From IMG/VR virus record IMGVR_UViG_2795385552_000001: a stretch of 64,000 nt of DNA, one strand, 5' to 3'. This DNA is from a virus. The notes under the pieces are model-generated. The model did no database searches. It saw nothing but the letters and a program-made list of their open reading frames with translations, and had not been told where the DNA came from. Both the position numbers and the translations under genes were made by a program. Positions 60,024 to 61,888 of the stretch are shown here, one piece after another (position 1 is the stretch's first letter; each line of letters opens with the position of its first letter).

Positions 60024-61445
60024 TCAGCTCTTCTTGAGCTTCAAGGTACCGACATAATCGTTGTCGTAGTCCCGGATCTCGACTTCCTTCAGGATGTCTC
60101 GGAACTGATCGTCGATCGTCGGCTTGTTGATTCCCTCTTCGGCTTCGAACTGCGCCTTGAGCTGGTTGTGCAGCGAGACCGCAGCACCGACTAGATCAGT
60201 GGTGCCCAGCTTGTAGTTGGTTCCACCCTCCAGTCGGCCGATGGCGAACGTCTTAGCCCGCTCCAGGGCCTCGCGCACGAACGCCGGATAGAAGCCGATC
60301 ACCACACCCTCACCGAGCTGGATCGTCATCGCCTCATAGACCTTGTCGTAATCCACGTCCTTAGCAAGACGCTCGGGTGTGACGACCGCCTTGATCAGGC
60401 GCTCAACACCGTTGCGGTCGAGCGCCGCGACCTCAACCACCGCATCGATGCGACCTGGACGAAGCATGCCCTTGTGGATGCGCTCAAAGTGGTTGGTGGT
60501 CATGAGAAGTGCGACCTCGGACCCCTTGGAGGTGACACCATCGAACGTCTCCAGCAGTTTGGACACCTGATCCACGTCGCTGGTCGATGTCTGGTTGTCC
60601 ACGTCCTCAATGAAGACCACCGCGGGCTGGTATAGCTTCGCGGTGCGGAGCACATCGTTGATGTCATCGCCAGGTCGTGCGGCGATGAAGGTCCAACCGT
60701 TCTGGACAGCCTCCAGTGCGGTGAGCTGACCCGCCGAGGTCTTGCCGGTGCCGTACGGCCCCTCCAGCAGCAGCGCTCGCTTGATGCGTACGCCTTCGCT
60801 CTTGAGCGCCTTACGGTGCCGGATCACCGACCACAGAGTGCCCTCCAGCGTGCTCATAACCTCATCGGAGAAGACGATCTCACTGGGTTTGATGGTGGAG
60901 AGGTCCAGGAACTCCGGCTCCTCGGTGCCGACGATCGCCTTGCCGCGATAGATCGAGTTGGTTTTCAGTTCCTCGCCGATCGCATCCAGGAACTCACGCG
61001 CGATCTTGGCGTTCTTCTTCGCCGTGATGACGGTGACATGAGTGACAATCCCGTTGTCGCGATCGCGCGTGCCACCCACTGTGACCAACGTCCGGTTATC
61101 AACGCTGGGAAGGTAGACGTTGCCCCATGGAACCTCCAGAGACTCGGTTGCCGAAATCTGCACGGTGCGAGTCTCGGGAGGCTCGGGGGGCGAGAAGAGG
61201 CCGCCAGCGCTGGGAGCGCCAATGGTGATGCCGAACATGCGCTTCATCACCCGAGAGGCGGCGACCGCGCCGTCAAACGGGCGGAACGGGTAGGTGCGGC
61301 TGGTCTGCTGTACCGACTCCGCTTCCTCCTGCATGCGCTCCAGAATGTTCTTGGCGCGCCCGTAGGTAATGCCGTGTGGCAGAACGATCTGCGGGTTGTC
61401 GTGAAAGGTAACCTCATCACCGGTGATGATCTCGGTATCGTTCAT
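60024..61445 (-). CDS. AAA+ ATPase (classical AAA clade) with unrecognised ~250-aa N-terminal domain
   Basis: Walker A GPYGTGKTS, Walker B VVFIEDVD, sensor-1 LLMTTN, Arg finger LRPGRID. Confidence 0.8.
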   Translation of the reverse strand: MNDTEIITGDEVTFHDNPQIVLPHGITYGRAKNILERMQEEAESVQQTSRTYPFRPFDGAVAASRVMKRMFGITIGAPSAGGLFSPPEPPETRTVQISATESLEVPWGNVYLPSVDNRTLVTVGGTRDRDNGIVTHVTVITAKKNAKIAREFLDAIGEELKTNSIYRGKAIVGTEEPEFLDLSTIKPSEIVFSDEVMSTLEGTLWSVIRHRKALKSEGVRIKRALLLEGPYGTGKTSAGQLTALEAVQNGWTFIAARPGDDINDVLRTAKLYQPAVVFIEDVDNQTSTSDVDQVSKLLETFDGVTSKGSEVALLMTTNHFERIHKGMLRPGRIDAVVEVAALDRNGVERLIKAVVTPERLAKDVDYDKVYEAMTIQLGEGVVIGFYPAFVREALERAKTFAIGRLEGGTNYKLGTTDLVGAAVSLHNQLKAQFEAEEGINKPTIDDQFRDILKEVEIRDYDNDYVGTLKLKKS

Positions 61446-61723
61446 TTGTTTCTCACTCTCATGTAAATGCACCTTTCGCGCCGTGCGAAAGAGGTTGTTG
61501 TTGTTGATGATTGGCGACACCCCGCCCGCCACCCGGTATAGAAAAACGGGCGGGGTGTCGTGTTGTTGGTGACGTGAGCCAGTCTTAGGGTTCGCGCCCA
61601 ATGGTCACTTAGCGCGCAAGCTCGCGTCCTTACCGTGATCGCGACCAACGAAATCACTTCTCAGACAAGCGAGACAGGACCAGGGGTCGCGAGGGTCGCT
61701 CCCGACCCCTGGTGATCTGCTGA
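61446..61723. promoter_or_regulatory. highly structured 278-bp leader between coiled-coil gene and AAA ATPase gene
   Basis: perfect 14-bp stem cgacaccccgcccg/cgggcggggtgtcg (61515-61560), 9-bp stem caggggtcg/cgacccctg (61681-61711), palindrome ctgactagttagtcag (61721-61736). Confidence 0.4.
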
Positions 61724-61888
61724 CTAGTTAGTCAGTAGATCTTCGCCTTGTTCGATTTGCGTCAGCTCCGCCTCCAGAGATTCCACCTCAGCTACGAGAG
61801 CACGAAGCTCACGTTTACGATTTGCAATCTTCTGGGTAACGACCCTGCGCCGTAGACGCAATGCTGCTAACGCCTCATCTCGGCTCAT
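61724..61888 (-). CDS. small coiled-coil protein (54 aa) upstream of AAA ATPase
   Basis: MSRDEALAALRLRRRVVTQKIANRKRELRALVAEVESLEAELTQIEQGEDLLTN; below ORF-track cutoff. Confidence 0.4.
   Translation of the reverse strand: MSRDEALAALRLRRRVVTQKIANRKRELRALVAEVESLEAELTQIEQGEDLLTN

What the first reader, a model, noticed from the sequence alone, without database searches (positions are those of the whole stretch)
60024..61888. Stand-alone AAA+ ATPase with a novel N-domain, preceded by a 54-aa coiled-coil mini-gene and a 278-bp highly structured leader
The ATPase has canonical classical-clade motifs: GPYGTGKTS, VVFIEDVD, LLMTTN and LRPGRID. It also has a ~250-aa N-terminal region I cannot assign, and it lies on the strand opposite the phage late genes. 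Between the small coiled-coil ORF (61724-61888) and the ATPase start is a non-coding stretch with a perfect 14-bp hairpin, a 9-bp hairpin and a 16-bp palindrome but no U-tract. This suggests attenuation-type or RNA-level control rather than termination. The two-gene architecture (small coiled-coil plus AAA) recalls adaptor/unfoldase or sensor/effector arrangements in anti-phage systems.
Basis: partly seen in the sequence, partly recalled or inferred. Interest (0 to 1): 0.62.

Follow-up and report, generated by a model that had tools for sequence, protein, structure and literature searches.

The report
Phage Bcs1-like ATPase behind pseudoknot RNA
A prophage of Mycobacteroides abscessus carries an ATPase from a large, uncharacterised phage family that resembles the folded-protein chaperones Bcs1 and YjoB, and the untranslated RNA in front of the gene holds a conserved pseudoknot that matches no catalogued RNA family.

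Summary
The window is prophage prophiFVLQ01-1 (cluster MabR). The described features are all present.

- **ATPase gene.** The 525-aa GenBank start is wrong, because close relatives carry frame-breaking indels upstream.
- **ATPase family.** The protein is not an orphan. It belongs to a large phage-specific family (PHROG 10440) found in N4-like, jumbo, Gordonia and temperate actinophages. The N-domain is always fused to the AAA module. The best structural matches are Bcs1 and YjoB. The Walker B motif is the Bcs1/YjoB-type "ED", and no aromatic pore loop is present.
- **Small ORF.** It is under purifying selection and occurs only in MabR prophages. In this genome, codon 3 of the ancestral 61-aa frame is a stop.
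- **Leader.** It folds far better than shuffled sequence (z = -5.3). It contains a roughly 85-nt pseudoknotted motif (61565-61649). Nine of its 26 pairs covary across MabR and MabD prophages, a third prophage type and one metagenome copy. There is no Rfam match, and the downstream genes differ between phages.

An adaptor/unfoldase pair or anti-phage system is not supported. RNA-level control is plausible, but classical attenuation is not shown.

The parts
62017..62044 (-). Promoter-like site (TTGACG, 16-nt spacer, AACAAT) upstream of the small ORF
   Evidence: This is the only sigma-70-like match in 59600-62400. It is a consensus match only. The count is no higher than in shuffled sequence.
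61984..61999 (.). Operator-like palindrome GGTAGACAAGTCTACC between the promoter-like site and the small ORF
   Evidence: It is one of five copies of GGTAGA-N4-TCTACC within 59105-62091, against 0.04 expected by chance. The copies sit at the same places in McProf, FSAT01-1 and FSIL01-1.
61901..61909 (-). Ancestral start of the small ORF (ATG GTT TGA). Codon 3 is a stop in this genome only.
   Evidence: All relatives read ATG GTT CGA/CAA... and encode 61 aa. Here CGA has become TGA. The Shine-Dalgarno-like AGGAAGG (61916-61922) serves this ATG, not the ATG at 61888.
61724..61888 (-). Small ORF (gene 93), 54 aa here: an arginine-rich stretch followed by about 3.5 leucine heptads
   Evidence: ORF. 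Pairwise dN/dS is 0.06-0.28 among six variants. It is found only in Mycobacteroides MabR prophages. Heptad and charge pattern. The McProf homologue gp92 is reported as expressed in lysogeny.
61679..61713 (-). Hairpin H1, 10 nt after the small ORF's stop codon, with no U-tract
   Evidence: Arms of 15 nt are 93% complementary. Folding energy is -31.6 kcal/mol, z = -4.8. FSQJ01-1 keeps the hairpin with a different sequence and an added base pair (z = -7.9).
61565..61649 (-). Conserved pseudoknotted RNA motif. P1 pairs 61644-61649 with 61565-61570. P3, the pseudoknot, pairs 61635-61640 with 61603-61608. P2 pairs 61617-61628 with 61571-61582. P4 pairs 61612-61616 with 61593-61597.
   Evidence: Alignment of 17 sequences: 97.5% of cells pair, and 9 of 26 pairs show changes on both sides. 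Slid controls give 0-1 such pairs, and 0 of 500 shuffles reach the covariation score. RNAalifold independently recovers P1, P2 and P4. The covariance model finds one copy in the window at 98 bits. No Rfam match.
61515..61560 (-). Hairpin H3: perfect 14-bp stem (16 bp in the minimum-energy fold), no U-tract
   Evidence: Arms. Folding energy is -36.5 kcal/mol, z = -6.0. Relatives show a compensatory A-U to G-C change in McProf and a compensatory 1-bp insertion in FSAT01-1, FSIL01-1 and L013. In FSQJ01-1 the sequence is replaced but a hairpin remains.
61473..61491 (-). Hairpin H4 (8 pairs). Its 3' arm contains the Shine-Dalgarno-like GAAAGG.
   Evidence: The signal is weak (z = -1.8), and the hairpin is absent from FSQJ01-1.
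61442..61462 (-). Six-codon mini-ORF (ATG AGA GTG AGA AAC AAA TGA). Its stop overlaps the ATPase start (ATGA).
   Evidence: Sequence. McProf has the same arrangement. In FSAT01-1, FSIL01-1 and L013 one extra base puts this ATG in frame with the ATPase. It is absent from FSQJ01-1.
60024..61445 (-). AAA ATPase gene (gene 92), 473 aa, Bcs1/YjoB-like, a member of PHROG 10440
   Evidence: Pfam AAA matches aa 225-339. PHROG 10440 matches full length at E = 3e-75. AlphaFold2 mean pLDDT is 91.7. The top Foldseek PDB hits are Bcs1 and YjoB.
60951..61445 (-). Family-specific N-terminal alpha+beta domain (aa 1-165)
   Evidence: Model pLDDT is 89.8. phmmer finds 682 clusters, nearly all 470-550 aa with this domain at the N-terminus. 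No PDB sequence hit. The best fold hit is Bcs1 at E = 1.7e-3.
60735..60761 (-). Walker A, GPYGTGKTS (aa 229-237)
   Evidence: G229, G232, G234, K235 and S237 are invariant in 98 homologues.
60597..60620 (-). Walker B, VVFIEDVD (aa 276-283), of the 'ED' type
   Evidence: E280, D281 and D283 are invariant. The YjoB paper describes ED in place of DE as the exception shared by Bcs1 and YjoB.
60444..60509 (-). Sensor-1 (LLMTTN, N318) and second region of homology (LRPGRID, R329 and R332)
   Evidence: T316, N318, R329, P330, G331, R332 and D334 are invariant. They align to the same motifs of Cdc48.
59971..60003 (-). Terminator hairpin after the ATPase gene (14 pairs) followed by UUUUCUAUU
   Evidence: It closes the transcription unit.

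Best explanation
**What it is.** This is the two-gene transcription unit 93-92 in the right arm of a cluster MabR Mycobacteroides prophage. Published RNA-seq of the McProf homologues reports both genes as expressed in lysogeny. The order is:
1. A promoter region with an operator-like palindrome.
2. A small arginine-rich coiled-coil ORF.
3. A 278-nt structured untranslated spacer.
4. A 473-aa AAA ATPase.
5. A U-tailed terminator.

**The ATPase (shown).**
- It belongs to a large, phage-specific family in which a private N-terminal alpha+beta domain is always fused to one classical-clade AAA module.
- In fold, domain order and its 'ED' Walker B it is closest to Bcs1 and YjoB.
- It lacks the aromatic pore loop of threading unfoldases.

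**The ATPase (inferred).** It forms a ring whose N-domains cap a chamber. It uses ATP to hold, remodel or move folded proteins, serving as a phage-beneficial chaperone or remodeller. It is not an unfoldase for a protease and not an immune effector.

**The spacer (shown).** It contains a compact pseudoknotted RNA fold (P1, P2, P4 plus a loop-to-5' helix P3), flanked by two very stable hairpins without U-tracts. The same fold occurs in MabD and other Mycobacteroides prophages. There it starts 12-25 nt after a stop codon and ends about 30 nt before the ribosome-binding site of unrelated genes.

**The spacer (inferred).** It is a gene-independent, cis-acting intercistronic mRNA element. It sets how much of the downstream cistron is made, most likely through processing or stability of the mRNA, or through read-through of the hairpins that follow it.

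**The small protein.** Its role is open. It is a MabR-only addition and is probably poorly translated in this particular genome.
For: **Identity and context.**

**Expression.** McProf gp91 and gp92 are listed among genes expressed in lysogeny.

**Start codon.**

**ATPase family.**
- PHROG 10440 matches full length.
- 1183 homologues, with more than 91% coverage in all 120 listed.
- 63 phage records, including N4-like phages, PhiW-14, jumbo phages and Gordonia Ronaldovirus.
- The N-domain is always N-terminal in proteins of about 500 aa.

**Fold.**
- Model pLDDT is 91.7.
- Foldseek ranks 1-11 are Bcs1 and rank 12 is YjoB, aligned over 414-455 columns. Proteasome, p97 and FtsH chains mostly align over about 260-390 columns.
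- The N-domain alone has Bcs1 as its top hit (E = 1.7e-3).
- Two short strands (aa 170-172 and 178-179) precede the AAA core in the model. Bcs1 and YjoB have extra strands at the same place.

**Motifs.**
- Walker B 'ED' is invariant and is the Bcs1/YjoB hallmark.
- The pore-loop position reads A-(R/K)-P-G, with no aromatic residue.
- Iyer et al. 2021 already noted BCS1 orthologues in jumbo phages.

**RNA.**
- The leader folds with z = -5.3. H1 and H3 have z = -4.8 and -6.0 and are structurally conserved with different sequence in FSQJ01-1.
- Motif covariation comes, and RNAalifold agrees.
- Copies occur in MabD and other prophages with variable downstream genes.
- In one phage the motif lies 3.65 kb from the AAA gene in the same operon.
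- No Rfam family matches.
- A U-tailed terminator follows the ATPase gene.
Against: **ATPase.**
- By sequence profile the AAA module scores highest with Cdc48/p97, not Bcs1.
- There is no transmembrane anchor, so it is not a Bcs1 orthologue.
- Oligomeric state, substrate and biological role are untested.

**RNA motif.**
- Most of the covariation reflects one deep split between MabR-type and MabD-type copies, so independent events are few. P4 never varies.
- Counts of G-U pairs against A-C mismatches do not decide which strand is functional.
- No transcript ends or expression data across the leader were available to me. Processing, stability, antitermination and translational control cannot be told apart.
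Confidence: 0.55

Rival explanations
1. The small coiled-coil protein and the ATPase form a two-component anti-phage or adaptor/unfoldase system. The prophage expresses it to protect its host, and an attenuator in the leader controls it.
For: The operon sits in the accessory region near attR, among genes expressed in lysogeny. Weak partial hits to the defence ATPase IetA/IteA cover aa 186-243. The small ORF is under purifying selection and is always adjacent in MabR prophages.
Against: - The ATPase family is mostly in lytic phages (N4-like, PhiW-14, jumbo) and in early lytic operons of temperate phages, without the small ORF.
- The IteA score is 21.6 bits against a cut-off of 510, and no protease or other effector gene is adjacent.
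- The small ORF has lost its ancestral start in this genome.
- The conserved RNA motif is not specific to this gene pair.
Confidence: 0.13
2. The leader is ordinary. H1 ends the small gene's transcript, a separate promoter in the conserved central segment drives the ATPase, and H3 is a 5' stabilising hairpin. The conserved segment would then act at the DNA level as a promoter, an operator, or a single-stranded DNA origin or priming signal, not as a functional RNA.
For: - The central 98 nt fold no better than shuffles when treated as a nested structure (z = +0.3).
- G-U against A-C counts give no strand preference.
- In MabD phages the element lies beside recombination genes: an exonuclease and a protein with an SSB-like tail.
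Against: - No promoter-like site was found in the leader.
- In MabD phages the element begins only 12 nt after a stop codon, which leaves no room for a promoter.
- Two crossing helices, P2 and P3, both covary. Double-stranded DNA recognition or a cruciform does not explain this.
Confidence: 0.15
3. The deposited annotation is right. The ATPase starts at TTG 61601 (525 aa) or at the PGAP start (498 aa), so much of the 'leader' is coding.
For: The frame is open back to 61601 in this genome and remains open in the relatives. The two databases chose these starts.
Against: - Among 87-95% identical relatives the upstream stretch carries repeated 1-2 nt indels, so the predicted peptides differ completely over segments.
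- The upstream peptide has no counterpart in the family.
- The stretch contains a 14-bp perfect hairpin and the covarying motif.
- FSQJ01-1 is annotated at the equivalent ATG.
Confidence: 0.03

Closest known systems
Bcs1 (mitochondrial AAA translocase of the folded Rieske protein)
   Same: - One classical-clade AAA module follows an N-terminal alpha+beta domain.
- Walker B is 'ED'.
- Extra strands link the two domains.
- It is the best Foldseek match for both the whole model and the N-domain alone.
   Different: - This protein has no transmembrane helix.
- It shows no sequence match to Pfam BCS1_N.
- The N-domain similarity is marginal (E = 1.7e-3).
- It is bacterial and viral, cytoplasmic, and its oligomeric state is unknown.
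Bacillus subtilis YjoB (PDB 7W42), a putative substrate-specific chaperone with an internal chamber
   Same: It is soluble, with the same two-domain order and the 'ED' Walker B. The Foldseek alignment spans 437-455 columns.
   Different: Sequence similarity is confined to the AAA module (aa 216-343). YjoB is a sigma-W stress protein of Bacilli, not a phage protein.
Phage 'BCS1 orthologues' noted in jumbo phages (Iyer, Anantharaman, Krishnan, Burroughs and Aravind 2021, PMC7824862)
   Same: This is probably the same family. Two uncultured jumbo-phage records are among the tblastn hits. That paper proposes a chaperone or translocase role.
   Different: I could not compare sequences directly. No experiment exists. 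Here the gene is in a temperate actinophage and is reported as expressed in lysogeny.
Pseudoknotted or hairpin cis-acting phage RNAs, such as the T4 gene 32 operator pseudoknot and the HK022 put antitermination RNAs (named from my own knowledge, not tested here)
   Same: Each is a compact structured RNA inside a phage operon that acts on expression of neighbouring cistrons.
   Different: No sequence or model similarity was found (Rfam negative). The topology here is P1 enclosing a long hairpin whose loop pairs with the 5' strand. The binding partner and effect are unknown.

Membership tests
Classical-clade AAA ATPase (Pfam PF00004) | Score above the curated threshold, with Walker A, sensor-1 Asn and two Arg in the second region of homology | tested here: met
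   The score is 54 bits against a cut-off of 21.2. GPYGTGKTS, N318, R329 and R332 are invariant in 98 homologues. They align to Cdc48 and VAT.
Classical-clade AAA ATPase (Pfam PF00004) | Walker B hhhhDE | tested here: not met
   The motif is VVFIED, with Glu-Asp in place of Asp-Glu, and is invariant in the family. Bcs1 and YjoB share the same exception and are active ATPases.
Bcs1/YjoB-like subgroup | Walker B 'ED' | tested here: met
   E280 and D281 are invariant. The feature is defined in PMC9565160.
Bcs1/YjoB-like subgroup | N-terminal domain with the fold of the Bcs1-specific domain or the YjoB N-domain | tested here: inconclusive
Bcs1/YjoB-like subgroup | Two extra beta-strands joining the N-domain to the AAA core | tested here: inconclusive
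   DSSP on the model shows strands at aa 170-172 and 178-179 before the AAA core. I could not inspect whether they join the core sheet.
Bcs1 proper | N-terminal transmembrane anchor | tested here: not met
   The protein starts MNDTEIITGDEV... with no hydrophobic segment. Homologues carry at most a short, variable 20-30 aa extension. This was judged by eye. No transmembrane predictor was run.
Bcs1/YjoB-like subgroup | Ring (hexamer or heptamer) enclosing a substrate chamber | not testable with these tools
   No multimer prediction or experiment was available.
ClpX needs a zinc-binding N-domain. Both show chromosomal synteny outside prophages. | tested here: not met
   The NCBIfam FtsH score is 42 bits against a cut-off of 600 and covers the AAA module only. 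The protein is 473 aa with no protease domain. All contexts examined are phage or prophage.
IetA/IteA anti-phage ATPase (PADLOC, NCBIfam NF042959) | Full-length match above the cut-off, with an adjacent IetS protease gene | tested here: not met
   The score is 21.6 bits against a cut-off of 510 and covers only aa 186-243. No protease gene is adjacent.
Intrinsic terminator or classical attenuator | A G+C-rich hairpin followed by a U-tract, with a leader peptide and mutually exclusive alternative hairpins | tested here: not met
   No terminator-like site was found on the gene strand in 61446-61723. H1 and H3 lack U-tracts. The only mini-ORF is not conserved in frame or presence. Alternative pairings were not searched exhaustively.
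Any Rfam 15 RNA family | A covariance-model match | tested here: not met
   There is no match at E <= 1 in 61446-61723. There is none at E <= 0.1 on the motif in L017 or L146.

The most novel reading that the evidence does not exclude
The 85-nt pseudoknot is a new class of phage regulatory RNA. It could be a processive antiterminator, a self-cleaving or processing element, or a protein- or ligand-sensing switch. In MabR prophages the adjacent arginine-rich coiled-coil peptide would be its trans-acting partner, analogous to lambda N with nut sites. Together they would gate read-through of the U-less hairpins into a Bcs1-like chaperone that alters host physiology during lysogeny.
Probability: 0.12. 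Interest if true: 0.75.

Novelty: new variant of a known kind. Interest (0 to 1): 0.5.

Why it matters
**Clinical link.** MabR prophages such as McProf have been linked to higher whiB7 expression and aminoglycoside resistance in M. chelonae and M. abscessus. Homologues of genes 92 and 93 are among the few prophage genes reported as expressed in lysogeny. A correct gene model and a concrete structural hypothesis give that work something to test.

**The protein family.** The Bcs1/YjoB-like chamber chaperone hypothesis also applies to a phage protein family with hundreds of sequence clusters and no known function.

**The RNA motif.** It is a small, well-delimited candidate for a new cis-acting RNA in clinically relevant mycobacterial prophages. 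It has a pseudoknot that mutational tests can address directly.

**Annotation.** The work corrects two database annotations.

Tried and rejected
- **Rfam.** Scans of the locus and of related loci found nothing relevant.
- **tRNA/tmRNA.** ARAGORN was negative on four loci.
- **Defence models.** PADLOC gave only weak partial IetA and TRIP13 hits.
- **Genome collection.** The protein-based scan found no relative, and the 30-nt leader pattern found no copy.
- **First motif pattern** (GGTCGCG-N5-CGGYRAGGAC). It returned 120 hits, all chance matches in G+C-rich coding DNA.
- **Second pattern.** It had a spacing error and returned nothing. The corrected version added one copy.
- **Metagenome scan.** It returned 51 hits, of which only 2 were real.
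- **Plasmids.** No copy of the motif.
- **Promoter scan.** No sigma-70-like site inside the leader.
- **Alternative helix.** I considered pairing GGTCGCG with CGCG-N-ACC. Its outer pairs are not conserved, so I dropped it (alignment).
- **HDV-like, twister, pistol and hatchet ribozyme topologies.** I compared them by eye and from memory with the strand order of the motif. None fits.
- **tRNA-like hairpins.** Those upstream of the ATPase gene in two other phages fold no better than shuffles.
- **Genes flanking the motif in MabD phages.** Pfam gave only Band_7 for gene 67, and PHROGs gave only families of unknown function.
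Full report
**Where we are.** The window is 100% identical to Mycobacterium phage prophiFVLQ01-1 (BK061310), a prophage of Mycobacteroides abscessus subsp. bolletii. Window coordinates equal record coordinates minus 222. The prophage belongs to cluster MabR, together with McProf of M. chelonae. The finding covers gene 92 ('AAA-ATPase') and gene 93 ('hypothetical protein'). 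Both are on the minus strand, between the lysis genes and attR. The region also encodes a DnaN-like clamp, an ADP-ribosylglycohydrolase, an HTH protein and, next to attR, a WXG-100 polymorphic-toxin cassette.

**Checking the observation.** Both ORFs exist. The ATPase frame is open back to TTG 61601, which GenBank uses (525 aa). NCBI's pipeline uses a 498-aa version.
- In an alignment of four MabR prophages that are 87-95% identical here, the stretch between the TTG and the ATG carries at least seven 1-2 nt indels.
- The in-frame translations of that stretch therefore differ completely over segments.
- The conserved family begins at 'IITGDEV', just after the ATG, and nothing resembling the upstream peptide occurs in 120 homologues.
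- The more distant MabR member FSQJ01-1 is annotated at the equivalent ATG.

The leader is therefore 278 nt (61446-61723). The perfect 14-bp hairpin (61515-61528 with 61547-61560) and the short hairpin (61473-61491) are real, and there is a third strong hairpin at 61679-61713. The 16-bp palindrome (61720-61735) has one mismatched pair and lies across the small ORF's stop codon. The whole leader folds with z = -5.3 against dinucleotide shuffles. None of the leader hairpins has a U-tract. The hairpin after the ATPase gene (59971-60003) does have one.

**The ATPase.**
- *Sequence assignment.* Pfam sees only the AAA module, aa 225-339. NCBIfam and PDB sequence searches place that module in the classical clade (Cdc48/p97, PAN, FtsH), far below any equivalog threshold.
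- *Family size.* The protein is not an orphan. PHROG 10440 ('unknown function') matches it end to end at E = 3e-75. The large protein collection holds at least 1183 relatives, and the best 120 cover 91-100% of the query at 48-78% identity.
- *Phage distribution.* In annotated phages it occurs in 63 records. These are the five MabR prophages, eight records of Gordonia Ronaldovirus phages, many N4-like Schitoviridae of Erwinia, Pseudomonas, Salmonella, Klebsiella and Escherichia, Delftia phage PhiW-14, and two uncultured jumbo phages.
- *Genomic context.* Context varies. In Keelan the gene lies reversed between the tail-assembly-chaperone and tape-measure genes. In phage Frozen it lies in the early region beside a second AAA protein and a metallopeptidase-domain protein. 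In three other temperate actinophages it lies inside long early operons.
- *N-domain.* A phmmer search with the N-domain alone (aa 1-185) against 1.84 billion representatives finds 682 clusters. Almost all are 470-550 aa with the domain at the N-terminus. The domain is family-specific and always fused to the AAA module.

**Fold.**
- AlphaFold2 with 98 homologues gives a confident model (pLDDT 91.7).
- Against the PDB, Foldseek ranks Bcs1 structures 1-11 and B. subtilis YjoB 12th. These alignments run over 414-455 columns and so include the N-domain. Proteasome, p97 and FtsH chains mostly align over about 260-390 columns.
- The model shows two short strands between the N-domain and the AAA core, where Bcs1 and YjoB have extra strands.
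- The pore-loop-1 position reads A-(R/K)-P-G, without the aromatic residue used by threading unfoldases.
- Iyer et al. 2021 had already noted 'BCS1 orthologues' in jumbo phages and proposed a chaperone or translocase role.

I therefore file the protein as Bcs1/YjoB-like in architecture. It is not a Bcs1 orthologue, because it has no membrane anchor. I infer a ring-shaped, chamber-type chaperone or remodeller of folded proteins. The inference is untested.

**The small ORF.**
- Its product has an arginine- and lysine-rich stretch followed by about 3.5 heptads of L/V/I.
- It is a real gene. Among six variants dN/dS is 0.06-0.28, while synonymous divergence reaches 0.84.
- It exists only in Mycobacteroides MabR prophages. 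There are ten clusters, all at least 85% identical and all 61 aa except this one.
- In this genome the ancestral frame reads ATG GTT TGA, so codon 3 is a stop. The good Shine-Dalgarno sequence therefore serves a two-codon ORF, and the 54-aa ORF starts at an internal ATG without one.
- In the FSQJ01-1 record the ORF is present but unannotated. An opposite-strand 'membrane protein' was called over it instead.
- None of the other phages carrying the ATPase has a related upstream gene.

The two-gene architecture is therefore a lineage-specific arrangement, not a property of the ATPase family.

**The leader.**
- *H1 and H3.* Both are very stable (z = -4.8 and -6.0). Both are kept as structures while their sequences change. 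H3 shows an A-U to G-C exchange in McProf, a compensatory one-pair insertion in FSAT01-1, FSIL01-1 and L013, and a wholly different sequence in FSQJ01-1. H1 shows a compensatory inserted pair in FSIL01-1 and in FSQJ01-1.
- *H4 and the mini-ORF.* H4 is weak (z = -1.8). The six-codon mini-ORF overlaps the ATPase start in FVLQ01-1 and McProf. One extra base puts it in frame in three relatives, and it is absent from FSQJ01-1.
- *The central segment.* The unexpected part is the stretch between H1 and H3. It is nearly invariant even in FSQJ01-1, whose leader is otherwise only about 70% identical. Yet it folds no better than shuffles as a nested structure.
- *Other copies.* A sensitive blastn found a 74% identical copy in phiGD17-1, an unrelated cluster MabD phage, in an intergenic gap. 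Pattern scans then recovered about 19 copies in IMG/VR. All lie in prophage-sized contigs, four of them the MabR prophages already in hand and most others close to the MabD prophage phiGD17-1. One divergent copy came from a 140-kb metagenome contig. Among annotated phages the motif is limited to MabR and MabD records, and it is absent from plasmids.

**Structure of the motif.** The copies share unpaired blocks (UGGUCGCG, AGGAC, GCGCGCUAA, AUUGGGCGCG) and differ in a compensatory way in three helices.
- P1 closes the element.
- P2 and P4 stack into a long hairpin with a variable 13-nt bulge.
- P3 pairs six nucleotides of the P4 loop with the strand between P1 and P2. This makes an H-type pseudoknot.

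On 17 distinct sequences, 97.5% of the cells pair. Nine of 26 pairs show changes on both sides: three in P1, four in P3 and two in P2. Sliding the partners by 1-3 columns gives 0-1 such pairs. None of 500 column shuffles reaches the observed covariation score (15-sequence version). RNAalifold independently predicts P1, an extended P2, and P4.

There are caveats.
- Most of the covariation reflects one deep split between MabR-type and MabD-type copies. A few extra events occur within MabR and in the metagenome copy.
- P4 never varies.
- Wobble counts do not decide the strand.

A covariance model finds exactly one copy in the window (61559-61650, 98 bits). It finds none in four other phage loci that carry the ATPase but not the motif. 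No Rfam family matches.

**What the other copies say about function.**
- In MabD-type phages and in a third phage type (locus L146), the motif starts 12-25 nt after the stop codon of a gene whose product ends in an SSB-like acidic tail (...DDxxPPF).
- It ends about 30 nt before the ribosome-binding site of the next gene. That gene is a PHROG 1371 protein, a Band-7 protein or an 84-aa protein.
- In L146 the ATPase gene and the motif lie in the same operon but 3.65 kb apart.

The motif is therefore not tied to the ATPase. It is transcribed as part of polycistronic mRNAs, and it leaves no room for a promoter. That argues for a gene-independent, cis-acting intercistronic RNA element. My best guess is that it sets the processing or stability of the downstream mRNA segment. 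Read-through of the U-less hairpins that follow it in MabR prophages is the next option. A metabolite riboswitch seems less likely because the downstream genes vary. I cannot separate these options with sequence alone.

**Regulation around the operon.** A 16-bp palindrome, GGTAGA-N4-TCTACC, occurs five times between 59105 and 62091, against 0.04 expected by chance.
- Two copies lie in the divergent region upstream of the HTH gene 90.
- One abuts the ATG of gene 91.
- One lies between the promoter-like site and the small ORF.
- One lies at the start of the divergent plus-strand genes.

The sites are conserved in McProf, FSAT01-1 and FSIL01-1, and none lies near the immunity region of the prophage. 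This looks like a local regulon, perhaps controlled by the HTH protein. I did not test that.

**Literature.** Cushman et al. 2021 and the 2022 G3 paper on cluster MabR report that McProf gp91 (the ATPase) and gp92 (the small ORF) are among 16 genes expressed in lysogeny. They also link McProf to increased whiB7 expression and aminoglycoside resistance. No function is assigned to either gene.

**Verdict.**
- The ATPase is an ordinary member of a large but uncharacterised phage family with Bcs1/YjoB-like architecture.
- The partnership with the small ORF and the defence reading are not supported.

Interest is moderate. The protein is a known unknown, and the RNA motif is new but narrowly distributed and of unknown function.

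Noticed in passing
window 59105-59120, 59137-59152, 59928-59943, 61984-61999, 62076-62091: The palindrome GGTAGA-N4-TCTACC occurs five times, against 0.04 expected. The copies sit at the starts of genes 89/90, 91, 93 and 94/95. They are conserved at the same places in McProf, FSAT01-1 and FSIL01-1. This is probably the operator set of a local regulator such as the HTH protein gp90.
   Followed up: partly
window 61901-61909: The ancestral start of the small ORF reads ATG GTT TGA in this genome only, a nonsense mutation at codon 3. The 54-aa ORF that remains starts at an internal ATG with no Shine-Dalgarno sequence.
   Followed up: yes
window 61446-61601: GenBank (525 aa, TTG start) and PGAP (498 aa) both start the ATPase gene too far upstream. 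Their extensions cover non-coding structured RNA.
   Followed up: yes
L007 3416-3745 (BK061312 gene 96): In prophiFSQJ01-1 an opposite-strand 'membrane protein' is annotated over the conserved 61-aa small ORF, and the small ORF itself is not annotated. This is likely a mis-call.
   Followed up: partly
L009 about 3898-3955 and L011 about 3882-3940: In two other actinophages the same ATPase gene is preceded by an element with a tRNA T-arm-like hairpin (GGTTCGACTCC loop) flanked by complementary CCCCG and CGGGG. ARAGORN and Rfam are negative, and the fold is no better than shuffles.
   Followed up: partly
L017 2043-2492, and the equivalent genes in L139, L144, L146, L150 and L156: The gene upstream of the RNA motif in MabD-type prophages encodes a protein that ends in a Gly-rich linker and ...DDxxPPF. 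This is an SSB-like C-terminal tail. The L017 copy has no Pfam or PHROG match and is annotated 'hypothetical'. The L146 copy matches only PHROG 1911 (unknown function).
   Followed up: partly
L005 3760-6383 (Gordonia phage Keelan genes 46-48): The ATPase and two unknown genes are inserted in reverse orientation between the tail-assembly-chaperone and tape-measure genes, a typical site for acquired cargo genes.
   Followed up: no
L006 4956-8619 (Erwinia phage Frozen gp37-gp39): In this N4-like phage the family member is followed by a second AAA-domain protein and a metallopeptidase-domain protein.
   Followed up: no
window 56088-58952: The same right-arm region, described in the literature as likely lysogeny-expressed, encodes a full three-domain DnaN-like sliding clamp and an ADP-ribosylglycohydrolase. 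Both are said to be unique to cluster MabR among M. abscessus prophages.
   Followed up: no
window 61442-61462: A six-codon mini-ORF has a stop that overlaps the ATPase start codon (ATGA). A 1-nt insertion in three relatives turns it into an in-frame N-terminal extension.
   Followed up: partly
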